11,067 bases of DNA from a virus (taxonomy: Duplodnaviria; Heunggongvirae; Uroviricota; Caudoviricetes), in the IMG/VR virus record IMGVR_UViG_2534681675_000020, one strand, 5' to 3'. Made by a program: the position numbers and the translations under genes. Numbering within the stretch: the stretch's first letter is position 1; every line of letters begins with the position of its first letter. The notes under the pieces were generated by a model. The model had not been told where the DNA came from and ran no database searches. It was given only the letters and a program-made list of their open reading frames with translations. This document shows positions 506-11,067 of this stretch, piece after piece.

Positions 506-1577
506 TGGATTTGCCCCTATATTTCCAGACATCTGTTATCACTTAACCCATTACAAGCCCGCTGCCGCAGATATTCCCGTGGCGAGCGATAACCCAGCGC
601 ACTATGCGGATGCCATTCGTTATAATGCTCGAACGCCTCTGCAAGGTTCTTTGCTGCCGTTAACCCGTCTGGTTTGGGCATGATACTGATGTAGTCACGC
701 TTTATCGTTTTCACGAAGCTCTCTGCTATTCCGTTACTCTCCGGACTCCGCACCGCCGTGTTCTTCGGTTCAAGTCCCAACATCCGGGCGAACTGGCGTG
801 TTTCATTAGCCCGGTAGCATGAACCATTATCCGTCAGCCACTCCACTGGAGACGACGGAAGATCGTTGCCGAAGCGGCGTTCCACCGCTCCCAGCATGAC
901 GTCCTGTACTGTTTCACTGTTGAAGCCGCCGGTAGTGACCGCCCAGTGCAGTGCCTCACGATCACAGCAGTCCAGCGCGAACGTGACACGCAGTCTCTCT
1001 CCGTTATCACAGCAGAACTCGAACCCGTCAGAGCACCATCGCTGATTGCTTTCTTTCACGGCCACTCTGCCTGTATGTGCCCGTTTCGATGGCGGTACAG
1101 CAGGTTTTCGCTCAAGCAACAGCGCATTCTGGCGCATGATCCGGTAAACACGTTTGGCATTGATCGCAGGCATACCATCAAGTTCTGCCTGTCTGCGAAG
1201 CAGCGCCCATACCCGACGATAACCATACGTGGGCAGCTCTCCGATAACATGGTGTATACGGAGAAGCACATCCGTATCATCAGTGTGACGACTGCGGCGG
1301 CCATCCATCCAGTCATCGGTTCGTCTGAGAATGACGTGCAACTGCGCACGCGACACCCGGAGACAACGGCTGACTAAGCTTACTCCCCATCCCCGGGCAA
1401 TAAGGGCGCGTGCGCTATCCACTTTTTTGCCCGTCCATATTCAACGGCTTCTTTGAGGAGTTCATTTTCCATCGTTTTCTTGCCGAGCAGGCGCTGGAGT
1501 TCTTTAATCTGCTTCATGGCGGCAGCAAGTTCAGAGGCAGGAACAACCTGTTCTCCGGCGGCGACAGCAGTAAGCGT
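506..1577 (-). mobile_element. IS2 remnant: right end (IRR) intact, left ~250 bp (IRL and 5' part of insC) absent
   Basis: Terminal sequence TGGATTTGCCCCTATATTTCCAGACATCTGTTATCACTTAACC at 506-548 matches the remembered IS2 IRR. insD is intact but insC homology stops near 1575 and no IRL sequence is present in the window. Confidence 0.85.
517..1422 (-). CDS. insD: IS2 transposase OrfB (InsD)
   Basis: 301-aa translation with a DDE-type core and the C-terminus ...[24 protein letters not shown], matching IS2 InsD as remembered. The A6G slippery motif (minus-strand CAAAAAAG, + coordinates 1422-1429) is retained at the insC/insD overlap. Confidence 0.9.
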
Positions 1578-1592
1578 TCGCCGTGCCAGCAT
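1380..1592 (-). pseudogene. insC: IS2 insC (OrfA), 5'-truncated
   Basis: Translation from L (1572-1574) onward, [64 protein letters not shown], matches the C-terminal half of IS2 InsC. The N-terminal HTH part is missing and an in-frame TGA lies a few codons upstream of the fortuitous ATG at 1592. Confidence 0.8.
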
Positions 1593-1688
1593 GGAGCAAT
1601 CAGCCGATACAGAACAGTAAAGCCGATAACTTGTTAATCACTCGCAGCAATGCATGTGATTTGTGCACACTTTCGGTTAACTGGTTCG

Positions 1689-2322: not shown

Positions 2323-2658
2323 TTATCGCGCCAGCGGCTGAACAGATACACCAGAACCCGCAAAGGCGGCACATTTTTTCGCGTCGGTGTCGACGCTCTC
2401 AGGCCAGTTAACGGCGGCAATATTGAATATCCCCGTCTTGTAACACTGTGCTGATTTCTGCGTTGACGTGTCCACGGGATACGCCGTCAGATAAACAGCC
2501 TTGCCAGATTCCTGACCATCCCACGGCTTAAATTCGCCATTGTCCGCCAGCATCAGCGGGGTAAATTCCTGAATAACGCCAGCATCAGCGGCAAAATGTA
2601 CCAGCGTCGTGGCAACCTGCTGACTGCCTGCAAATAACTCAATGTATGGAGTGTCCAT
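2323..2658 (-). CDS. head decoration protein, lambda gpD-like
   Basis: 111 aa. Segments TPLMLADNGEFKPWDG and YKTGIFNIAAVNWPESVDTDAKKCAAFAGSGVSV align with remembered lambda gpD ([52 protein letters not shown]). GGGGGA RBS. Confidence 0.7.
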   Translation of the reverse strand: MDTPYIELFAGSQQVATTLVHFAADAGVIQEFTPLMLADNGEFKPWDGQESGKAVYLTAYPVDTSTQKSAQCYKTGIFNIAAVNWPESVDTDAKKCAAFAGSGVSVQPLAR

Positions 2659-2669
2659 AGAATCCCCCG

Positions 2670-3725
2670 TTAACCAATTTTGACGGTAACAAATTTGCGA
2701 ATATCTGCCGGAACCGGCTGCGGTGCGCTGTGCGTCTGCACGTACTCAATCGCCGGATCGCCGTCCTCAATCCAGTTTTTCGGGTAAAACATGTTTTGCG
2801 TTGCGCCCGTTCTGACCGCTTCCTGATCCATAATCGCACCATAGGCCACCAGCCCTTTATTGTTGGTGTTGCCCAGGACCAGCAAATCAGGCTCAAGGAA
2901 ATATTTTTCGGTGCCGTCGCTGTCAGTGTATTTGCCGGAATAGACGATAAGGGCAATATCGCCCAGATATCCTTTAAAGCTCACCACTTCGCCCAGGTTT
3001 TTACAGGCCAGCTCTGCGGAGGACTCTGAACCACGGGAAAGATCGTACAGTTCGCGGAATTTTTTAAAGCTGCGTAACGTTCGCCATACCTCAGCGCCCA
3101 TGATCATGACGTTGGCGGGGCAACATGCTTGATCCGCATAAAGCTCGATATCATAGATTGGATCGTGGGTTTCTTTGTCCTGCTCGGACCATTTACGGCC
3201 TTTGGCCTGCTCTATGATGTTTTTTTCCGGTATCTTCCAGTCGATTTCATAGCGTTCTATGCCTTCGCCCTCAATGATGTTTTTTCCGGTCGTTATCGCA
3301 TTCACCGCCAGCCATTCCACGCGCGCTTTAATCGCGTTTATCTGGCGGCGCATGTTGCCAGTAATCAGGCGCATACGGCGATAGGTTGGGTCATTAAGCT
3401 GTGCCGGATCTTCTCCAGCCATACGTATGATGGTTTTCGTTGGATCGATTTCGTGCTTCGGCTTCATGTATCCAGGTTTAATCGTGCTGGTTTCGTACCC
3501 TTTATCGCGCTGGACCTGACTACCCACCATAGGCGAACAAAACGCCGACATCGTAACCTCTTCAATGTCCAGGGTGTCCAGCATGATGTTTTGGGTGTTG
3601 AATGTCGCCACGTTCGGGAAAAACAGCGTGGTAAACAGCGGACTGAATTTAAATTCCGCAATATCCCCGCGATTCAGGTACATGAAAAGCTGGTTAGTGT
3701 TAAGTGCCGTTGCTTTGCCTGCCAT
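2670..3725 (-). CDS. major capsid protein, lambda gpE-like
   Basis: 351 aa (lambda gpE is 341 aa). Motifs FKFSPLFTTLFF, GYMKPKHEIDP, DPAQLNDPTYRRMR, YPKNWIEDGDPA and the C-terminus ADIRKFVTVKIG are collinear with remembered gpE. The start overlaps the upstream stop (TAATG). Confidence 0.85.
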   Translation of the reverse strand: MAGKATALNTNQLFMYLNRGDIAEFKFSPLFTTLFFPNVATFNTQNIMLDTLDIEEVTMSAFCSPMVGSQVQRDKGYETSTIKPGYMKPKHEIDPTKTIIRMAGEDPAQLNDPTYRRMRLITGNMRRQINAIKARVEWLAVNAITTGKNIIEGEGIERYEIDWKIPEKNIIEQAKGRKWSEQDKETHDPIYDIELYADQACCPANVMIMGAEVWRTLRSFKKFRELYDLSRGSESSAELACKNLGEVVSFKGYLGDIALIVYSGKYTDSDGTEKYFLEPDLLVLGNTNNKGLVAYGAIMDQEAVRTGATQNMFYPKNWIEDGDPAIEYVQTHSAPQPVPADIRKFVTVKIG

Positions 3726-3931
3726 TATTCACCCCCATAATTTTTATGCATCCCAAGCGCCGCAAGTAAATAAGAGCGTACAAGTGAACCTATCGACGGC
3801 TCCGGCGTCATCAGCGGATCCAGTCCAGCCGCCACGCCAGCCTCATAGTTTTTTTTGTGGCGCTGCTTGAGCACCTCCACGATTTCGGGGCTTATGTACA
3901 CCGAAACACCGCCTTTTTTCTCTTCAGCCAT
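3725..3931 (-). CDS. hypothetical protein, 68 aa, translationally coupled to the capsid gene
   Basis: ATG at 3929-3931 with AGAGGA RBS 10 nt upstream; its stop overlaps the capsid start codon. No recognisable motif. Confidence 0.5.
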   Translation of the reverse strand: MAEEKKGGVSVYISPEIVEVLKQRHKKNYEAGVAAGLDPLMTPEPSIGSLVRSYLLAALGMHKNYGGE

Positions 3932-3958
3932 AGTAAGAAATTCCTCTTTGACTTAAAA

Positions 3959-4016
3959 AATCAGAACTGGATGTTCATCCAGTTCTGATTATAATCATGA
4001 TTGCATTTTATGCAAT
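3959..4016. promoter_or_regulatory. promoter/operator region of the capsid operon: 32-bp palindrome plus a second 7-3-7 palindrome around a palindromic -10 (ATTATAAT)
   Basis: Near-perfect palindrome AATCAGAACTGGATG-TT-CATCCAGTTCTGATT (3959-3990). ATTATAAT at 3988-3995 reads TATAAT on both strands. ATTGCAT-TTT-ATGCAAT at 4000-4016 overlaps a minus-strand -35-like TTGCAT with 16-nt spacing to the -10. Confidence 0.4.
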
Positions 4017-4095
4017 GATGTTGAGTTGTGTTGCAAATTATGAAATGATGATCCCGATCATGTGTGTCAGTGCACCAAAAAGCCTCATATGCAAA

Positions 4096-4132
4096 AGCCC
4101 GATAAGCCACCTCTGACCTTATCGGGCTTTTT
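4096..4132. terminator. bidirectional rho-independent terminator-like hairpin
   Basis: Stem AGCCCGATAAG (4096-4106) / CTTATCGGGCT (4118-4128) with an 11-nt loop, followed by T5 on the + strand and flanked by A4 on the other side. Confidence 0.45.
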
Positions 4133-4307
4133 TATCTGCCTGCAAAGATGTCGAACAAAAATTAACCACAACCATCATCTTTTTTGCATCAAAACAATTA
4201 AAAACAATAAATTACGCTCATGATGATGATGACGATAAAATCACAAAAATGCGCTTTTTTCCGCGCCTCCCGCCCCGTGTTCAGGCCCACCCCGCCAGGA
4301 GGACCCG

Positions 4308-4331
4308 TAAAAAAGCCGGATTGCTCCGGCT
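4308..4331 (-). terminator. rho-independent terminator after ssb
   Basis: Hairpin GCCGGA-TTGC-TCCGGC (4315-4330) preceded on the + strand by A6 (4309-4314), 17 nt after the SSB stop. Nearly identical to the terminator cassette at 1866-1890. Confidence 0.5.
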
Positions 4332-4346
4332 TCTGTCACTCGTCGC

Positions 4347-4769
4347 TTAAAACGGTATGTTATCCCCGTACGGATCATCATTCCCCGCCTGTTGTTTTGC
4401 CCTGTTCAGCGCGTCAGTAGCCTGGCCCTGTTGACCTTTTTTGCCGCCCAGTCGCGCCGTTCGCGCACTGATTACACTGTCTGCGATAACCTGCCAGCCC
4501 TGCCGCGTTTCTCCGTTCTGCCCAGTCCACTGGCTGATCTGCATGTTACCCGCCACGCTCAGGAGTTCACCCTTGCGGTGCCTTTCCAGTGCTTCGGCCT
4601 GTCTGCCAAATGCCAGGACGGATAACCACATCGTCGCCGTTCCGTCATCTGCCTGGCTGCACGGAAGGGGGACCGCCATACGCGCCAGCGTCATCGGTGT
4701 GCCCTTGCTGGTCTGTTTTACCTGCGGGTCGTCCACCAGCCGCCCGTAAGCGGCTATCTGTGCTGTCAT
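4347..4769 (-). CDS. ssb: single-stranded DNA-binding protein (SSB family)
   Basis: 140 aa. OB-fold region WLSVLAFGRQAEALERHRKGELLSVAGNMQISQWTGQNGETRQGWQVIA parallels E. coli SSB ([50 protein letters not shown]); Gly/Gln-rich linker and C-terminal acidic tip ...DDPYGDNIPF (SSB ends DDDIPF). GGAGAGG RBS. Confidence 0.8.
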   Translation of the reverse strand: MTAQIAAYGRLVDDPQVKQTSKGTPMTLARMAVPLPCSQADDGTATMWLSVLAFGRQAEALERHRKGELLSVAGNMQISQWTGQNGETRQGWQVIADSVISARTARLGGKKGQQGQATDALNRAKQQAGNDDPYGDNIPF

Positions 4770-5044
4770 GATTCCACCTCTCCGGTTTTAACGTTGATTG
4801 TTGTTACCTGTTCCGCTTCGGCAATCTCCCGCTCTGTCAGCGTGGCAAAATTTGCCGCCGTCGTGGTCATGAATGCGCTTATCAGGTCGGGATGTGCTTT
4901 CGCGTATCCTTCCCCCGCGTGGCGGTCTATCGTTCTGATTGCCACCTTTAAAGCGTGCTCTGTCATGTCTAACGCGCGATATTTCGGTTCTGTTCTGTCT
5001 CTGCGTTTTTTGAGTGATTTATTAAATTTCCCTGAAGTGTGCAT
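4766..5044 (-). CDS. hypothetical protein, 92 aa, coupled to ssb
   Basis: ATG at 5042-5044 with GAGGGGG upstream; its stop overlaps the ssb start (ATGA). Basic N-terminus; no recognisable motif. Confidence 0.45.
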   Translation of the reverse strand: MHTSGKFNKSLKKRRDRTEPKYRALDMTEHALKVAIRTIDRHAGEGYAKAHPDLISAFMTTTAANFATLTEREIAEAEQVTTINVKTGEVES

Positions 5045-5092
5045 ATTTATTTTTACCCCCTCGTTTAAAAAGTTTTGAGTTGTGCCTCCCCT

Positions 5093-5319
5093 TGTCTACC
5101 TTATCTACCTTAGTGGCCCTCATGCCAGTAATGGCGCGGCTTTCAGCGGGGTAGAGTGCTTTTATCCACTATCTACCCCGTGTCTACCTCCCTGTCTGAT
5201 TCAGGTAAAATCAGGTAGAGAGGGTAGATAGTGGGTAGATAGTAAAAAAAGGCTATCTACATAACTTAATGCACTGAATTAAATGTATTTTTCTTTACTC
5301 AGGTAGACAGGGTAGACAG
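5093..5319. repeat. iteron cluster (GGTAGA[CGT]AG-type, both orientations); putative origin of replication
   Basis: At least 11 copies: TCTACC-type at 5093-5100, 5102-5109, 5170-5177, 5181-5188, 5254-5261; GGTAGA-type at 5149-5158, 5214-5220, 5223-5230, 5234-5240, 5302-5310, 5311-5319. An AT-rich stretch lies at 5262-5300. It starts 14 bp after the primase stop. Confidence 0.6.
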
Positions 5320-5332
5320 CAATTACAAAAAA

Positions 5333-7087
5333 TTATAAAAACGCGTCGCACTCGTCTGTTGTTATTGCGTTAGTCTGCGTTACTCCCTTAACTTTCCGCG
5401 TAATATATTCATGTCCGTAAACTTTCGCGGCTGGCTTCATAGCCTTGCCAAAGTCATTTACGTTTAGCGGTTTGCTCCTGCCTGCGTACGCCATAAACGC
5501 CAGATAGACGCGATAAAGGCTGTTCCTGGTCGTGTACTTCACTGAATCACCACCGCCACCCATCATCAGGCCGCGCGCTTCCTCCAGAAAATTCAGGAAC
5601 TGGCAAAACTCAATAACCGGATCCGTCTGTTGCTTTATTGCCAGTGCTTCATCACCGTCACGCTGTTCCAGTAGTAAAGCCCGTGCCTTCTCAGGGTCGG
5701 TAAAGTTCGCCAGCAATCGGCGGATAATGACAGGGATTTCAGCCGCAATCTTTTCCGGTAGCTCCCTGTCTTTTTCGGCCTCACTGACGATATTGTCGAA
5801 ACGGAAAATTACGCGACGACGTGACACACCTCCGGCCCGTTCGGTGAATATCATCGGGTTATTGTTGGTAGCCAGCACCACCGCCCTGATTACCGCCGTA
5901 AAACGCTTTTCATATTTCGGGTTAATTTCCACGGGGTCGCCGCCCGTGATTTTCTTGATGCCCGTTCCTTCGCCTGTATATTTCGGCTGGTCAGCCAGGA
6001 CGATAAGACGACTCCCGACAACCTGCGCACGTCCACCAGCATCATCAAGCGATGTCATCTCCGCGCTCACCGTGTTCTGTTTCCCTGCCAGAAGGCTGGC
6101 TATGTGCGTGAATGTACTTTTACCGCTCCCGCCGTCTCCGGTGGCCTCAATAAACATCTGCCAGTCGTACCGGTTCGCCATAATCATGTACAGCGCGGCA
6201 CATATACGCATCATCTTGCGCGGGTCTTTTCCGGCTACGTGCTCAAGCCATTTATGAAAGTTTGGCGCGTTGTCGCGGATATTCTCCCCTGGTGCTGGTG
6301 GCGTGTACTCAATACCGTTGTGCGTGGTGATCCAGTTCTCCGGCGTGTGCGGGGAAAATTCCCCCGTTTTCAGGTCAAGCGCACCATTGGCGAACGGCAG
6401 CAAATCGCCGGACGGCTCGCCCATTGGTTCGGCAATAACTTTTAACGCTTCCACGGCGTTATTGATTACGCGCTTGCTGAAAGTGGCCCTGTGCTCTGAA
6501 TAGATCGCCACCATTTCGCGGCTAAGTTCCATTGTGCTGACCGGACACCATACCCCGCCGCGCCATACGTAAACGATTTCACTTTCAGGATGTACGCAAA
6601 CGCCATCAAAGCGATCGGCAAGCAGCTGCGCGCGCTCACTGTCCGCCATCTGCGAAAGTTGCGCCTTTTGCTTTACCGGAAGCTCAATGACCAGACCATC
6701 AGAAAGATTCTGTCGCTCACGGGCCAGATATTCGCGCCAGTTCTGCACCTCTTGGCCGTGCATACCCTCAGGATAAAAATTTGCATCCTGTACGCCTGCC
6801 GCCGCCAGCTTCTGGCCAATCGCCTTTATCATTACTGGCGCAAGATATCCGGCCCTGAATATGCGCACGGATTTTCTGCCTTCCGGCACAATTTGCAGCT
6901 TATCCAGTTCTGATAACTGCTGCTCCCCAAGCCACACAGGAGGCTCATTATCTCCGGCCAGACGCGCGTCATGTTCCTGCCATTGTTTTGCGTGTGACCA
7001 GGCATCACTACCCGCAAAAATAATGACTTCTGTTTCTTTGTGTTTTATGCCGCGTGACTGCTGTTTTACGTTCGGTGCCAGTTTCAT
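5333..7087 (-). CDS. P4-family DNA primase/helicase (replication initiator)
   Basis: 584 aa with Walker A GDGGSGKST, a downstream Walker B-like LIVLAD and a primase-like N-terminal half; architecture typical of phage/plasmid P4-alpha-type primases. Start overlaps the upstream stop (ATGA). Confidence 0.85.
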   Translation of the reverse strand: MKLAPNVKQQSRGIKHKETEVIIFAGSDAWSHAKQWQEHDARLAGDNEPPVWLGEQQLSELDKLQIVPEGRKSVRIFRAGYLAPVMIKAIGQKLAAAGVQDANFYPEGMHGQEVQNWREYLARERQNLSDGLVIELPVKQKAQLSQMADSERAQLLADRFDGVCVHPESEIVYVWRGGVWCPVSTMELSREMVAIYSEHRATFSKRVINNAVEALKVIAEPMGEPSGDLLPFANGALDLKTGEFSPHTPENWITTHNGIEYTPPAPGENIRDNAPNFHKWLEHVAGKDPRKMMRICAALYMIMANRYDWQMFIEATGDGGSGKSTFTHIASLLAGKQNTVSAEMTSLDDAGGRAQVVGSRLIVLADQPKYTGEGTGIKKITGGDPVEINPKYEKRFTAVIRAVVLATNNNPMIFTERAGGVSRRRVIFRFDNIVSEAEKDRELPEKIAAEIPVIIRRLLANFTDPEKARALLLEQRDGDEALAIKQQTDPVIEFCQFLNFLEEARGLMMGGGGDSVKYTTRNSLYRVYLAFMAYAGRSKPLNVNDFGKAMKPAAKVYGHEYITRKVKGVTQTNAITTDECDAFL

Positions 7088-7383
7088 TTTTTACCCCTGA
7101 ATCCGTTAATCATGGTTTTCAGCTTCTGGATGTTTGCCCGTGCCCTGGCGTTGCTGGTGGGCACGTTATGCGGCGCGGTCTGTACCAGAGAAAAATCACG
7201 CCGGAACTGATAAACAGGCATCACGCAATCATATTCGTAACCTTCACGGCGGTAAGTTACGCACCGTCCCGCCACGCTTTTAATCGTTACCGTGCCGCCG
7301 TAGTTATCCCGGAAAATATCGCCGGGGCGGATTTCAGGCCGAGCGAGGCCACTGGCAGTAAAGCCAGAATTTTTCTGTTTCAT
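7084..7383 (-). CDS. hypothetical protein, 99 aa, coupled to primase
   Basis: ATG at 7381-7383 with GGAGAA RBS; its stop overlaps the primase ATG. No recognisable motif. Confidence 0.5.
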   Translation of the reverse strand: MKQKNSGFTASGLARPEIRPGDIFRDNYGGTVTIKSVAGRCVTYRREGYEYDCVMPVYQFRRDFSLVQTAPHNVPTSNARARANIQKLKTMINGFRGKK

Positions 7384-7388
7384 GGTTT

Positions 7389-7616
7389 TTATTCTCCGGT
7401 GTGATGCGCTTTATTATTCTCGTGAATTGCCATCACTGTATTTAATTCGTTAATTACTGGCGTTAATAATGTGTGCACGGCAGAAAACATCATGGGATAT
7501 GATTCATCGCCATTTTCCGGCACTTCCATTAACTTAAGTAATAATGCCTCCATTTCCTTTGCGCGGATTAATGCATTCTCAGAATGAATAAGAACATTAA
7601 AGGGTATTTTATGCAT
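7389..7616 (-). CDS. hypothetical protein, 75 aa (AT-rich gene)
   Basis: Preferred start ATG at 7614-7616 (MHKIPF...) with GGGAGA about 9 nt upstream; this start overlaps the stop of the upstream gene by 8 nt (ATGCATAA). The track start at 7652 lies inside the upstream gene. Locally AT-rich by eye. Confidence 0.45.
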   Translation of the reverse strand: MHKIPFNVLIHSENALIRAKEMEALLLKLMEVPENGDESYPMMFSAVHTLLTPVINELNTVMAIHENNKAHHTGE

Positions 7617-7839
7617 CACACAGTTTCTCCCTGATTCTTTTAGTGTCCTCATTGAGGATGTCTGTAGCTTTTGTCAGTGAGTTTTTGATAATTATTTTTA
7701 TTGTTTTAAATTTTCTTTTGTCGTACTCCGACTGTGATTTCCTCTCCATGATCTCTACCATGCAATTTATATCCACAAGCGCATGTATCAGTACTTTCAA
7801 TGCTTCGCCTGCTGCGTCCGGCGTGTTTTTATTGCACAT
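7609..7839 (-). CDS. hypothetical protein, 76 aa (AT-rich gene)
   Basis: ATG at 7837-7839 (MCNKNTPDAAGE...) preceded by AGGAGG with 5-nt spacing. The track ORF extends to 7881, but that upstream start has no RBS. Confidence 0.5.
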   Translation of the reverse strand: MCNKNTPDAAGEALKVLIHALVDINCMVEIMERKSQSEYDKRKFKTIKIIIKNSLTKATDILNEDTKRIREKLCDA

Positions 7840-8443
7840 GGCGCACCTCCTGACGAATACGGGCGGCGAATACAGCAACACAACCGGACGGGCAACGACT
7901 ACGCGCTTCGCGTTCCGTCCAGGCGGTTACGTGGATGATTTGGGATTCTGACGCGCCAAAGATGATAAAGCGCCAGATAAAGGCAGTTTGAGAATGTACG
8001 AGGGCAGGGATAGTAGCCATGTTGGCAGCCTCTTCGTTAGGTTTAATAAACCCACCGCAGGAAACGCCAATTTCGCTGGCGGTGGACTGTACAGGGTTGG
8101 CGTAACCGGTTAACGAAGAACCCGGCGCGGATTGCTCCGCCCCCATACAGCCCACCATTGATAAGGTGTGACTATCCGGCACAAAAAAACACGCAGGGCG
8201 CGTGTTGTGCGCTTCGTTAAATACCAGGACGCCAATCCCGGCACCAGATTTTGCTGGTGCGGATAAATCATAGCCCTGGCTGGCAATGGCGATCAACTGG
8301 TTTTTCTGGCGTGCTTCCTGTTCGCTGGTGGCCTCAATGGTAATCACGCGCGGTTGTGCTGTGCTCAGGGCGATAAAACGCCAGATATATTTATTCAGGT
8401 TGTGCGAGTCCCGCCCTTGCGGGTGTATGGTATGATTTAACAT
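7829..8443 (-). CDS. hypothetical protein, 204 aa, with a diverged internal repeat; first gene of the leftward early operon
   Basis: ATG at 8441-8443 with GAGG 5 nt upstream; C-terminus overlaps the next gene by 11 nt. N- and C-terminal segments repeat: IWRFIALSTAQPRVITIEATSEQEAR versus IWRFIIFGASESQIIHVTAWTEREAR. It is the C-terminal part of a 423-codon open frame whose upstream part is judged non-coding. Confidence 0.4.
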   Translation of the reverse strand: MLNHTIHPQGRDSHNLNKYIWRFIALSTAQPRVITIEATSEQEARQKNQLIAIASQGYDLSAPAKSGAGIGVLVFNEAHNTRPACFFVPDSHTLSMVGCMGAEQSAPGSSLTGYANPVQSTASEIGVSCGGFIKPNEEAANMATIPALVHSQTAFIWRFIIFGASESQIIHVTAWTEREARSRCPSGCVAVFAARIRQEVRHVQ

Positions 8444-9104: not shown

Positions 9105-9311
9105 TTACGCAGCCGTTCCGCGCGCTTCTTCCTCGCGCTCTTTCAGCCAGGCCAGCACTTCATCTTCATACCAGCCAACACGGCGCAGACCGATTTTGAA
9201 GCCTTTCGGGAATTTTCCGGCGTTGATCATGTCCTGTAGCGAACTGTCTGCCTTGATGCGCAGAATATTTTTTACTTCCTGACGGGTAAGAATTTTTCTG
9301 ATTGTTTCCAC
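9105..9311 (-). CDS. alpA: AlpA-family phage transcriptional regulator/excisionase-like protein
   Basis: 68 aa with GTG start at 9309-9311 and GAGG RBS. Motif ...LRIKADSSLQDMINAGKFPKGFKIGLRRVGWYEDEVLAWLKER is typical of the AlpA/Phage_AlpA family (HTH followed by a conserved W). Confidence 0.75.
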   Translation of the reverse strand: METIRKILTRQEVKNILRIKADSSLQDMINAGKFPKGFKIGLRRVGWYEDEVLAWLKEREEEARGTAA

Positions 9312-9825: not shown

Positions 9826-11067
9826 TTACACGGCACGGATACCCCTTTTACCACTGGCTATGGTCACTCCGGTTGCTGCGGCCTCTACAAATTCCCCCCA
9901 CCAGCGCATAAGCACCACGCGCTTTTCCAGGTAGTTACTTCGGTTATATGCTCGCCTTACCTCGTTCGTGTCCACGTGTGCGAGTGCGGCCTCGATTACG
10001 TCCGGCTCGAATCCTTCCTCGTTCGCTGCTGTGCTGAATATGGCGCGTAATCCATGAGACACCAGCACGCCAGCGAATCCCATTCGCCGCAATGCTGCGT
10101 TGGCGGTCTGGCTGTTCATAGGCTGCCGTGGGTCTTTCAGGCTAGGGAAAACGTGCTCGCGGTGGTGGCTGATTGGCTTCATGGCCTCCAGTACCGCCAT
10201 AGCCTGACTACAAAGCGGGATAACGTGATCACGCCGCATCTTCATGCGTCCGGCGGGGATCGTCCATTGTTGCGCGTCCATGTCGATTTCTTCCCAGCGT
10301 GCTGACGATGCTTCAACCGGACGGGTTACAGTCAGTAGCTGCCATTCAATCAGTAATCTGGTCTGCCGTTCTGTTGCTGATACGGATAAAGCCTGCATAA
10401 GCTCCGGCAACTGTTCGGGGCGGATTGTTGGCATATGTTTTTTTACAGGGGAGGGGAACGCCTTACGCACATTCATAGCCGGATTGGCATCAATCAGCCC
10501 ACTGTTGGCGGCGTAATCCATTACCTCATTAACGCGCTGTAAAACCCGCTTGAGTGTTTCCAGGTTGCCGCGCTCCTTGATGGGTGTAAGCACCTCAACG
10601 AACCTTCGGGCAGTGAGGGTATCTATTGGCGTGTTGCCGATGAACGGGAATACATATTTATCCAGCGAACGCCAGATGTCTTTAATCGTGTTGGGGGCCA
10701 GATTCTGGCTGATTTTCACCTGGTACCATGCCGCCGCCACATTTTCGAACGTGTTCCCTTGTCTTCGGGCCTCTGCCTCTCGTTTTTTCTTCTCATGGTC
10801 CTGCGGGTCAGTTCCGGCACTGATTAACGTCCTGTACTCGCTACGGCGTTTTCTGGCATCAGCCAGGGAAACATCTTCAAGCGATCCAAAACTCAGCAAT
10901 ATTCTTTTTTTGTCCGATGGTCGGTAGTAGGAAAATCGCCAGAGTTTTGATCCGGACGGTTTTACCAGGAGAAAAAGCCCACCGCCGTCCTGTAGGGTGT
11001 ACTCCTTTTGCGCTGGTCTGGCTGCTTTGATCTGCACTGTGGTTAATGGGGGTGTTTTTCTCGCCAT
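9826..11067 (-). CDS. int: tyrosine recombinase, P4-type integrase
   Basis: 413 aa. N-terminal arm-binding motif LQDGGGLFLLVKPSGSKLWRFSYY; catalytic-domain signatures HGLRAIFSTAANEEGF...AALAH and the tyrosine region RRAYNRSNYLEKR. The start codon sits at the window edge, so the true start could lie beyond it. Confidence 0.9.
   Translation of the reverse strand: MARKTPPLTTVQIKAARPAQKEYTLQDGGGLFLLVKPSGSKLWRFSYYRPSDKKRILLSFGSLEDVSLADARKRRSEYRTLISAGTDPQDHEKKKREAEARRQGNTFENVAAAWYQVKISQNLAPNTIKDIWRSLDKYVFPFIGNTPIDTLTARRFVEVLTPIKERGNLETLKRVLQRVNEVMDYAANSGLIDANPAMNVRKAFPSPVKKHMPTIRPEQLPELMQALSVSATERQTRLLIEWQLLTVTRPVEASSARWEEIDMDAQQWTIPAGRMKMRRDHVIPLCSQAMAVLEAMKPISHHREHVFPSLKDPRQPMNSQTANAALRRMGFAGVLVSHGLRAIFSTAANEEGFEPDVIEAALAHVDTNEVRRAYNRSNYLEKRVVLMRWWGEFVEAAATGVTIASGKRGIRAV

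What the first reader, a model, noticed from the sequence alone, without database searches (positions are those of the whole stretch)
7389..7839. AT-rich pair of overlapping small genes inserted in the early operon
Two small genes (76 and 75 aa) are visibly more AT-rich than the flanking primase and 204-aa gene and are joined by an 8-nt start/stop overlap (ATGCATAA). The compositional contrast suggests separate acquisition. Tightly coupled small gene pairs in satellite early operons are candidates for helper-interference, anti-defence or toxin-antitoxin-like modules.
Basis: partly seen in the sequence, partly recalled or inferred. Interest (0 to 1): 0.5.

Follow-up and report, generated by a model that had tools for sequence, protein, structure and literature searches.

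The report
Two small early satellite genes
The two AT-rich overlapping genes are real, but they are not a linked pair or a fresh insertion: they are two unrelated, conserved little helical proteins of unknown function that sit in a shuffled row of small genes in the early operon of E. coli phage satellites.

Summary
Observation confirmed. Two minus-strand genes, A (7609-7839, 76 aa) and B (7389-7616, 75 aa), have good ribosome-binding sites and an ATGCATAA overlap. Their GC is 0.38/0.37 against 0.50 for the window, the lowest stretch in it.

Interpretation only partly holds. The window is an E. coli PICI/cf-PICI satellite with a P4-like early operon: isrK and C4 RNAs, Icd-like gene, A, B, DUF4222, primase.

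- **Slot:** related islands hold 1-4 small genes between Icd and DUF4222, in a fixed order and all chained by short overlaps.
- **B (phrog_2196):** near-constant last gene before DUF4222 (about 81-83% of islands). It mostly occurs without A and keeps the same ATGCATAA start whatever lies upstream.
- **A (phrog_5146):** an optional subtype that travels with the isrK-C4-Icd block.
- **Both families:** GC about 0.39 throughout, under purifying selection (dN/dS 0.39 and 0.20), predicted two-helix hairpins, no detectable homology to each other, no known domain, and absent from 50,697 phage genomes.

A toxin-antitoxin module or a single recent insertion is not supported. A occupies the position of P4's helper-derepression gene epsilon, with only weak, inconclusive similarity. 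Function remains unknown; small protein-binding early effectors is the best guess. Modest interest.

The parts
7609..7839 (-). Gene A, 76 aa. Predicted two-helix hairpin, pI 8.8. AT-rich subtype 'a' of family phrog_5146. Optional slot member.
   Evidence: ORF and SD. phrog_5146 at E 1.3e-9. 23 homologous clusters, all Escherichia (E. coli, E. albertii) where a source names the organism. AF2 pLDDT 88.6 with helices 9-34 and 38-75. dN/dS 0.39. Absent from collinear island L007.
7389..7616 (-). Gene B, 75 aa. Predicted two-helix hairpin, acidic (pI 5.6). Family phrog_2196. Near-constant last gene before DUF4222.
   Evidence: ORF and SD. phrog_2196 at E 7.7e-9. 64 clusters, only E. coli and Shigella among named ones. 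Only 14 clusters among 1.84 billion representative proteins. AF2 pLDDT 84.7 with helices 6-30 and 39-73. dN/dS 0.20. Positional conservation.
7609..7616 (-). 8-nt start/stop overlap ATGCATAA: B start and A stop.
   Evidence: The same ATGCATAA junction precedes B when the upstream gene is Icd-like (L007); family-b genes that follow a family-d gene (L002, L009) also start in an 8-nt overlap, with a different sequence.
7829..7839 (-). 11-nt overlap ATGTGCAATAA: A start and Icd-like stop. It is preceded by the conserved linker GCCCGTATTCGTCAGGAGGTGCGCC.
   Evidence: The linker, or its 3' half, recurs at the 3' end of Icd-like genes and of family-c cassettes in other islands.
7394..7397 (-). GGAG ribosome-binding site for DUF4222, lying inside B's last codons (His-Thr-Gly-Glu).
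   Evidence: Junction sequences caccggagaataaaaaccATG in W, L001, L002, L007 and L008. This accounts for the conserved C-terminal HTGE.
7084..7383 (-). DUF4222 gene, 99 aa, basic (pI 10.3). Always follows the slot. Overlaps the primase start by 4 nt.
   Evidence: PF13973 at E 1.2e-24..
5333..7087 (-). Replicase (D5_N / DUF5906 / Pox_D5 primase-helicase), the end of the early operon.
   Evidence: In related islands it is exchanged for a RepA helicase or a DUF927 protein while B and DUF4222 stay.
7829..8020 (-). Complete Icd-like ORF, 63 aa, immediately upstream of A.
   Evidence: NCBIfam phage_ICD_like, second stretch at residues 155-198 of the 204-aa ORF. Aligns with the 62-67-aa Icd-like genes of other islands.
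8075..8162 (-). C4 antisense RNA, a relative of P4 CI RNA.
   Evidence: Rfam RF01695, 75.3 bits, E 1.2e-13. The same model finds P4's CI region.
8184..8260 (-). isrK-like RNA (a P4 seqA-type leader) with an intrinsic terminator.
   Evidence: Rfam RF01394, 80 bits. Terminator-like site at 8206-8188.
8300..8443 (-). Icd-like 5' fragment (about 48 codons) fused in frame to the RNA region. This is the first part of the '204-aa ORF'.
   Evidence: Homology to L007 resumes at 8303.

Best explanation
A and B are two independent, non-homologous small proteins. They are not a two-gene module and not one insertion. They fill a cassette slot in the early operon of Escherichia PICI/cf-PICI satellites. In this window that operon reads: promoter, isrK-like leader, C4/CI-type immunity RNA, Icd-like gene, A, B, DUF4222, primase.

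Shown:
- The slot holds 1-4 genes of 61-86 aa in a fixed order, Icd [e|c] [a | a2 d] b DUF4222. They are chained mostly by 8- or 11-nt overlaps (range 0-28 nt) with strong ribosome-binding sites.
- B's family is the near-constant last member. A is an optional, AT-rich subtype of the common a/a2 family.
- Islands recombine at the gene junctions, so replicase type, DUF4222 allele, B allele and upstream cassettes assort freely.
- Both proteins are under purifying selection and are predicted alpha-helical hairpins.
- Both are found only in Escherichia and Shigella among hits whose source names an organism (many are unnamed metagenome sequences), in satellite-type chromosomal islands, and in none of 50,697 phage genomes.

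Inferred:
- They are co-transcribed and translationally coupled with icd and the replicase. They would therefore be made only when the satellite's RNA immunity is lifted after helper induction.
- Being 75-aa helical hairpins with no enzymatic or DNA-binding signature, they most likely act by binding another protein of the helper phage, the host or the satellite.
- A sits exactly where P4 has epsilon, the anti-repressor that derepresses the helper. A role of that kind in helper interaction or specificity is the leading guess for the a/a2 family.
- B is acidic and always placed just before the basic DUF4222 protein. It probably serves a step that every island variant needs, either as a modulator of DUF4222 or at the start of satellite replication.
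For: - **Element identity:** int, AlpA, capsid E, decoration protein, SSB and D5-type primase. Annotated homologous islands.
- **RNA immunity cassette:**, with the same layout in P4.
- **Slot order and overlaps:**
- **B without A:** 208 genomes hold B-like DNA and 43 hold both genes. L007 is collinear but lacks window 7623-8302, the block carrying isrK, C4, Icd #2 and A.
- **B's position:** B-family HMM hits in 63 of 81 DUF4222-anchored loci, plus 4 disrupted copies. B is present in 60 of 74 complete intervals and a/a2 in 63 of 74.
- **Free assortment:** the replicase after B-DUF4222 is the primase in 34 loci, RepA in 26 and DUF927 in 9. Near-identical B alleles are paired with DUF4222 alleles of 66-100% identity.
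- **Composition:** stable low GC, b 0.391 +/- 0.013 (n=66) and a 0.386 +/- 0.006 (n=21). GC3 is 0.36 and 0.44.
- **Selection:** dN/dS 0.39 for A and 0.20 for B.
- **Structure:** helical hairpin models with pLDDT 88.6 and 84.7.
- **No relation between A and B:**
- **Transcription signals:** no promoter- or terminator-like site on the coding strand within 7389-7839.
- **Cis elements:** no repeats in the pair region, while iterons lie downstream of the primase.
- **P4 parallel:** epsilon and orf151 follow the CI-RNA region with 8-nt overlaps upstream of the alpha primase. Epsilon is an anti-repressor that binds P2 C (PMC2995052).
Against: - No functional evidence exists for either protein. All fold matches are generic hairpins with E > 0.09, and profile searches of solved structures found nothing.
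- Pfam's Derepression model (PF25738) does not hit A or B. The a-family versus epsilon-family profile comparison gives only 10% probability.
- Free recombination between B and DUF4222 alleles argues against an allele-specific B-DUF4222 partnership.
- E. coli PICI rep plus ori alone can drive replication (PMC6092414), so B is unlikely to be essential for replication itself.
- Only 5 of 20 sampled islands carry the C4 RNA, so gating by RNA immunity is not general to the slot.
- The C4 loop-to-target complementarity is short (9 nt) and only marginally better than shuffles.
Confidence: 0.6

Rival explanations
1. Toxin-antitoxin-like or abortive-infection pair: one small protein is toxic, the other neutralises it, and tight coupling fixes their ratio.
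For: Two small adjacent genes with an 8-nt overlap. One is acidic and the other mildly basic. Satellites are known carriers of defence cargo (general knowledge).
Against: B occurs without A in most genomes and islands. The overlap is a feature of B's start whatever lies upstream, and overlaps run along the whole operon. No hits in Pfam, NCBIfam or PADLOC. No promoter of their own on the coding strand. Both are embedded in an operon that ends in the replicase.
Confidence: 0.04
2. Separately acquired accessory cargo (anti-defence or helper-interference 'moron' genes) brought in from an AT-rich donor.
For: GC of 0.37-0.38 against 0.50-0.54 in the flanks, with GC3 also low. The slot is variable between islands. 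A is presence/absence polymorphic.
Against: B is near-core, in 81-83% of islands. Low GC is constant across deeply diverged family members, so it does not date an event in this island. No donor is visible: 0 hits in 50,697 phage genomes, 0 places on plasmids within the E. coli complete-genome collection, and only 14 clusters in 1.84 billion representative proteins. No match to known defence models.
Confidence: 0.15
3. Replication accessory proteins: B, with DUF4222, helps load or regulate whichever replicase follows. Examples would be bridging to host DnaB or SSB, or acting at the origin.
For: B and DUF4222 always sit immediately upstream of the replicase and are translationally coupled to it. 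An acidic B lies next to a basic DUF4222. The iteron-type origin candidate lies just downstream of the primase.
Against: The same B-DUF4222 unit precedes three unrelated replicase types. A rep-ori segment alone replicates in E. coli (PMC6092414). There is no similarity to known loaders.
Confidence: 0.2
4. The AT-rich DNA itself is the functional element (an H-NS or Rho target, an origin or a promoter), and the ORFs are secondary.
For: The lowest-GC stretch of the window. Two promoter-like hexamer pairs on the opposite strand at 7671-7712.
Against: Purifying selection at the protein level. Conserved reading frames and lengths across 30-100% identity. No direct or inverted repeats in 7300-7900. 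Promoter-like matches are expected in any AT-rich DNA.
Confidence: 0.05

Closest known systems
Satellite phage P4 left (early) operon: CI RNA region, epsilon (helper derepression protein, PF25738), orf151, orf106, alpha primase
   Same: Same order and strand logic. isrK-like and C4/CI RNA models hit both elements. The RNA region is followed by small genes chained by 8-nt overlaps and then a D5-type primase. A sits where epsilon sits. The N-termini match (M-x-N-K-x-T-P). There is weak similarity in the C-terminal helix (hhalign P=0.003; 0 of 150 column shuffles reach the score). DUF4222 is weakly similar to the N-terminus of orf151 (P=0.002).
   Different: PF25738 does not detect A, B or the a2 proteins. 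hhalign probability is only 10%. Epsilon is 95 aa and has ordinary GC (0.52). P4 has no Icd-like gene and no relative of B. The helper of this island is presumably lambdoid, since its capsid E and decoration D genes are lambda-type, and not P2.
Phage P1/P7 immI operon (c4 antisense RNA, icd, ant)
   Same: A C4-family RNA lies upstream of an icd-like gene whose translation is coupled to downstream genes (Rfam family and NCBIfam phage_ICD_like). A 9-nt complement to the C4 loop overlaps the icd-like ribosome-binding site.
   Different: Downstream of icd here there is a row of 60-100-aa proteins and a replicase, with no Ant antirepressor. The regulatory pairing is inferred only, and the duplex energy is marginal.
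PHROG families phrog_5146 (A) and phrog_2196 (B), both 'unknown function'
   Same: HMM matches at E 1.3e-9 and 7.7e-9. Sister cassettes in other islands match at 1e-26 to 1e-30.
   Different: These are database clusters with no assigned function. No member was found in deposited phage genomes by tblastn.
Gram-negative PICI / capsid-forming PICI (EcCICFT073, EcCIEDL933) four-zone layout: Integration, Bro, Replication, Late
   Same: int, alpA, an Ash/Icd 'Bro-zone' region with optional C4/isrK RNAs, primase plus SSB, then capsid genes (PMC10111431; bioRxiv 10.1101/2022.09.08.507074).
   Different: In the passages retrieved from these papers (term searches and single sections) the small genes between the Bro zone and the replicase are not characterised. 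The ordered cassette row described here was not mentioned in them.

Membership tests
Type II toxin-antitoxin module | The two genes co-occur as an obligate pair | tested here: not met
   B is found without A in most carriers: 43 of 208 genomes have both. See also L007 and the IMG/VR loci.
Type II toxin-antitoxin module | Sequence or profile similarity to a known toxin or antitoxin family | tested here: not met
   No Pfam, NCBIfam or PADLOC hit that passes any cutoff.
Type II toxin-antitoxin module | Own autoregulated promoter upstream of the pair | tested here: not met
   No sigma-70-like site on the minus strand between 7389 and 8266. The genes are chained by overlaps to icd and to DUF4222-primase. 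This rests on a consensus scan only.
Type II toxin-antitoxin module | Toxicity of one product, rescued by the other | not testable with these tools
   Needs expression assays.
P4 epsilon / Derepression protein family (PF25738) | Match to the family HMM | tested here: not met
   PF25738 hits P4 epsilon at 9e-51 but not A, B or the a2 proteins at E<=0.1.
P4 epsilon / Derepression protein family (PF25738) | Remote homology by profile-profile comparison | tested here: inconclusive
   a/a2 family against the epsilon family: hhalign probability 10%, P=0.003, 22 columns, with 0 of 150 column shuffles reaching the score. Controls give P=0.055-0.11.
P4 epsilon / Derepression protein family (PF25738) | Position: first gene after the CI/C4 RNA region, start overlapping the upstream ORF, upstream of the primase | tested here: met
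   Met for A (with an Icd-like ORF interposed between the RNA and A).
P4 epsilon / Derepression protein family (PF25738) | Binds and inactivates the helper's immunity repressor | not testable with these tools
   Needs two-hybrid or pull-down and prophage-induction assays.
Known anti-phage defence systems (PADLOC-DB) | Match to any defence-system protein model | tested here: not met
   No hits for A, B, DUF4222, Ash/Icd or YlcI.
Gram-negative PICI / cf-PICI satellite (host element) | int, alpA, primase/rep, and its own capsid genes, at an island size of about 10-15 kb | tested here: met
   Pfam hits for Phage_integrase, Phage_AlpA, D5_N/DUF5906, SSB, Phage_cap_E and HDPD. Homologous annotated islands next to tRNA-Pro and other sites. 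The late module here is cut by an IS3-family element.
Recently acquired compositional island ('insertion') | Atypical composition, together with absence from otherwise collinear relatives | tested here: inconclusive
   Composition is met for both genes. Absence from collinear relatives is met for A but not for B. Low GC is family-wide and old.
PHROG phrog_5146 / phrog_2196 | HMM match over the full length | tested here: met
   A residues 1-69 at E 1.3e-9; B residues 1-71 at E 7.7e-9.

The most novel reading that the evidence does not exclude
The a/a2 family (phrog_5146, including A) is a very diverged relative of P4 epsilon. It would then be a helper-derepression or anti-repressor protein of PICI/cf-PICI satellites that targets the repressors of lambdoid helpers. 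Cassette swapping at conserved junction linkers would retune helper specificity. B would be the near-universal acidic partner needed for the early programme. This would mean many E. coli PICIs actively switch on their helpers and do not simply wait for induction.
Probability: 0.12. Interest if true: 0.6.

Novelty: new member of a known kind. Interest (0 to 1): 0.3.

Why it matters
If the slot proteins prove to be the satellites' tools for handling their helper or host, the ordered, recombining row of small genes would be the place to look for what sets helper range in the very common E. coli PICI/cf-PICI islands. These genes have not been studied. As it stands, the finding mainly corrects a tempting misreading. 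An AT-rich, overlapping gene pair in a satellite is not by itself evidence for a toxin-antitoxin module or a recent insertion. Here the overlap and the composition are properties of the operon and of the gene families.

Tried and rejected
- **Homology between A and B:** none by BLASTP or hhalign. Tandem-duplication origin rejected.
- **Known domains:** Pfam, NCBIfam and PADLOC gave nothing above threshold. Sub-threshold hits (Nucleolin_bd, MoaC) were treated as noise.
- **Fold searches:** PDB for both models and BFVD for A returned only generic two-helix hairpins (encapsulated ferritin, Get1 coiled coil, Tsi2, Rop), all at E>0.09. The ferritin-like reading was rejected because there is no ExxH metal motif.
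- **Profile searches of PDB sequences:** nothing.
- **tblastn against 50,697 phage genomes:** no match for A or B.
- **DUF4222-anchored scan of one genome per species:** only 2 loci, because the patterns were too strict. It was replaced by IMG/VR scans.
- **Epsilon homologues in IMG/VR:** nearly all 97-99% identical and useless for a profile. A protein-database search was used instead.
- **B 5'-half next to an SSB gene:** this match in many poultry-associated genomes looked like a fusion. It is a decayed island remnant cut by IS elements.
- **Origin or iteron role for the AT-rich stretch:** rejected, since there are no repeats there and the iterons lie downstream of the primase.
- **RNA duplex energies (C4 loop against its putative targets):** only marginal against shuffles, so that pairing is reported as inference.

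Full report
**1. Checking the observation**

The window carries its genes mostly on the minus strand. Two ORFs fit the description. Gene A runs 7609-7839 (76 aa), with AGGAGG 6 nt upstream of its ATG. Gene B runs 7389-7616 (75 aa), with GGGAGA upstream. B's ATG and A's TAA overlap as ATGCATAA.

GC is 0.381 for A and 0.368 for B. The whole window is 0.504, DUF4222 downstream is 0.520, the primase 0.528 and the upstream ORF 0.537. The 451-nt interval lies in the lowest 0.5% of all windows of that length, and the global minimum overlaps it. Third-codon-position GC is also low: 0.455 and 0.368 against 0.56-0.57.

**2. What the element is**

Pfam identifies the following:
- a tyrosine integrase (9826-11067);
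- AlpA (9105-9311);
- an Ash/Icd-like ORF (7829-8443);
- DUF4222 (7084-7383);
- a D5_N/DUF5906 primase-helicase (5333-7087);
- SSB (4347-4769);
- lambda-type capsid E and decoration D (2670-3725 and 2323-2658);
- an IS3-family transposase (517-1422);
- PerC (1-372).

This is the layout of Gram-negative PICI/capsid-forming PICI satellites: Integration, Bro, Replication and Late zones (PMC10111431; bioRxiv 10.1101/2022.09.08.507074). Annotated E. coli islands with the same order were retrieved.

Rfam places isrK (8184-8260) and C4 antisense RNA (8075-8162) on the coding strand inside the '204-aa' ORF. That ORF is therefore a composite. It consists of an Icd-like 5' fragment, the two RNAs, and a complete 63-aa Icd-like gene (7829-8020) that ends 11 nt inside A.

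The same two RNA models hit P4's CI region. In P4 the RNA region is followed by epsilon, orf151 (each with an 8-nt overlap), orf106 and the alpha primase. A thus occupies epsilon's position.

A 9-nt complement to the C4 loop overlaps the ribosome-binding site of the Icd-like gene (8030-8040). Another lies in isrK, just before its terminator (8210-8220). This fits the P4/P1 paradigm, but the duplex energies are only marginally better than shuffles, so I treat gating by the RNA as inference.

**3. The pair is not a unit**

A DNA search of 5,426 complete E. coli genomes with the pair found matches in 208. Only 43 hold both genes. Most of the rest hold B alone, directly after an Icd-like gene.

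Island L007 is collinear with the window at 92% identity from 2362 to 7622, that is, up to 6 nt before B's start. It lacks window 7623-8302, the block carrying isrK, C4, Icd #2 and A. So a mosaic breakpoint runs between A and B. B belongs with DUF4222 and the replicase side, and A with the RNA-immunity block.

In seven islands examined by hand, the interval between Icd and DUF4222 holds 1-4 genes of 61-86 aa, chained mostly by 8- or 11-nt overlaps (range 0-28 nt). A 5-nt gap, DUF4222 and a 4-nt overlap into the replicase follow. B's ATGCATAA junction is the same whether Icd or A precedes it, and family-b genes that follow a family-d gene also start in an 8-nt overlap. B's last codons (His-Thr-Gly-Glu) carry the GGAG for DUF4222.

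**4. Survey**

| Sample | Size | Result |
|---|---|---|
| IMG/VR loci anchored on B | 72 | All read b, DUF4222, replicase. Replicase is the primase in 34, RepA in 26, DUF927 in 9. |
| DUF4222-anchored loci | 81 | ORF ending just upstream matches a B-family HMM in 63. Four more have disrupted B. Thirteen have another family (g) and one has family f. |
| Complete Icd-to-DUF4222 intervals | 74 | a/a2 in 63, b in 60, d in 51, g in 22, e in 15, c in 12. |

In the 74 complete intervals the usual order is Icd [e|c] [a | a2 d] b DUF4222, with minority variants in which c or g is interposed. The exact 'a b' combination of this window occurs in 3 of them.

Near-identical B alleles are paired with DUF4222 alleles of 66-100% identity and with different Icd alleles. 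Recombination at the junctions is therefore frequent. Three further observations fit junction-mediated cassette exchange:
- a conserved linker, GCCCGTATTCGYCAGGRGGTG...ATG, ends the Icd-like genes;
- its 3' half reappears at the 3' end of family-c cassettes;
- one database protein is a chimera of A's first eight residues and B.

**5. The proteins**

- **Distribution of A:** 23 homologous clusters, all Escherichia (E. coli, E. albertii) where a source names the organism.
- **Distribution of B:** 64 clusters, only E. coli and Shigella among named ones. A B profile finds only 14 clusters at 50% identity among 1.84 billion representative proteins.
- **Outside satellites:** neither protein has a tblastn match in 50,697 phage genomes. 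None of the 227 genomic places is on a plasmid.
- **PHROG membership:** A matches phrog_5146 and B matches phrog_2196, both of unknown function. The divergent last-slot gene of L003 matches phrog_2196 at 2e-28.
- **Selection:** dN/dS is 0.39 for A and 0.20 for B, similar to or lower than the neighbouring genes.
- **Composition:** GC is 0.39 +/- 0.01 in every member of both families, although synonymous divergence reaches 0.3-0.7. The AT-richness is an old, maintained family trait.
- **Structure:** AlphaFold2 predicts two antiparallel helices for each (pLDDT 88.6 and 84.7).
- **A against B:** no detectable sequence relation.
- **Charge:** B-family members are always acidic (pI 4.2-5.6), DUF4222 is always basic (about 10), and A is mildly basic.
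- **Fold and PDB searches:** only generic hairpins.

**6. Is A an epsilon?**

Pfam's Derepression model does not hit A, B or the a2 proteins. A profile of 29 a/a2 sequences against 22 epsilon-family sequences gives an hhalign probability of 10% (P=0.003) over 22 columns of the C-terminal helix. None of 150 column shuffles reaches that score. Controls (b against epsilon, b against a) give P=0.11 and 0.055.

The N-termini are alike: MCNKNTPD in A and MCNKNTPQ in one epsilon homologue. That stretch overlaps the stop of the upstream ORF, so it may reflect a shared junction and not shared protein ancestry. DUF4222 shows a comparably weak similarity to the N-terminus of P4 orf151 (13%, P=0.002).

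I rate remote homology as possible but unproven. Epsilon's known function is to bind the P2 C repressor (PMC2995052).

**7. Mechanism**

Shown: both genes are real, conserved and satellite-specific. Both are embedded in one overlapping gene chain from icd to the replicase, with no promoter- or terminator-like signal of their own on the coding strand. The region has no repeats, whereas iterons (GGTAGAYAG, about ten copies) lie at 5088-5322 just past the primase.

Inferred: they are expressed only with the early operon after immunity is lifted, and they act by protein binding.
- A's family is the positional counterpart of the helper-derepression gene.
- B is a near-core acidic hairpin upstream of DUF4222.

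A rep-ori fragment alone replicates in E. coli (PMC6092414), so an essential replication role for B is unlikely.

The rivals are weighed in the report sections: a TA pair, separately acquired cargo, a replication accessory, and a cis-acting AT-rich element. The TA reading fails its testable criteria.

**8. Verdict**

This is an ordinary, though uncharacterised, feature of a known kind of element. The useful results are the ordered cassette slot, B's near-core status, the correction of the '204-aa gene', and the weak epsilon lead.

Noticed in passing
window 7829-8443 (-), with 8075-8162 and 8184-8260: The '204-aa Ash/Icd gene' contains isrK (80 bits) and C4 antisense RNA (75 bits) on the same strand. 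It looks like an Icd-like 5' fragment, two immunity RNAs and a complete 63-aa Icd-like gene read through as one ORF. Protein annotation of this stretch is probably wrong. P4's 'cI ORF' shows the same situation.
   Followed up: yes
window 8030-8040 and 8210-8220 (-): 9-nt complements to the C4 loop (UCUUCGUUA / CUUCGUUAA) lie on the ribosome-binding site of the Icd-like gene and inside isrK just before its terminator, like P4 seqC and seqA. Duplex energies are only marginal against shuffles.
   Followed up: partly
window 5088-5322: About ten copies of GGTAGAYAG, in both orientations, immediately downstream of the primase stop codon, in a lower-GC stretch. Candidate iteron-type origin of replication.
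   Followed up: partly
window 7840-7865; L001-L009 junctions: A conserved linker, GCCCGTATTCGYCAGGRGGTG...ATG, ends every Icd-like gene. Its 3' half recurs at the end of family-c cassettes. The slot genes keep a fixed order with optional members. This looks like junction-mediated cassette exchange.
   Followed up: partly
window 7392-7403 (-): B's conserved C-terminal His-Thr-Gly-Glu codons carry the GGAG ribosome-binding site of DUF4222, which may explain why that tail is conserved.
   Followed up: yes
window 7084-7383 (-) vs P4 orf151 (L010 7440-7895): DUF4222 shows weak profile similarity to the N-terminal 50 residues of P4 orf151 (hhalign probability 13%, P=0.002). Both lie between the small early genes and the primase.
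   Followed up: partly
window 517-1650: An IS3-family element (301-aa rve transposase plus a 70-aa upstream ORF) separates the capsid/decoration module from a PerC gene at 1-372. The satellite's late module is probably interrupted or truncated.
   Followed up: partly
window 3900-4350: A second low-GC patch (0.37) between SSB and the 68-aa gene ahead of capsid E. It has a perfect 15-nt palindrome (3959-3973 / 3976-3990) and several hairpin-plus-T-run sites. It may be the early terminator and late promoter region.
   Followed up: no
L006 5001-5127 (NZ_CP054388.1) and the 12 other spread-sampled records with the identical 127-nt match (H73-H84), most from chickens: The 5' half of a B gene sits directly next to an SSB gene in a decayed island cut by IS5, IS3 and IS66 elements. 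The identical remnant recurs in 13 of the 60 sampled records, which suggests a clonal or widely spread relic.
   Followed up: partly
protein P0090: An 83-aa database protein starts with A's N-terminus (MFSNNTPD) and continues as a B-family protein. This is a natural A/B chimera formed near the gene starts.
   Followed up: no
L163-L241 (e.g. L187 3293-3496): In 13 of 81 DUF4222 islands the last slot gene is a different 66-aa family (MHNHEAHLPVVLNVPSDYTGRVLIFLDKGKVKSQ...), apparently related to family c. It also ends in Thr-Gly-Lys just before DUF4222.
   Followed up: no
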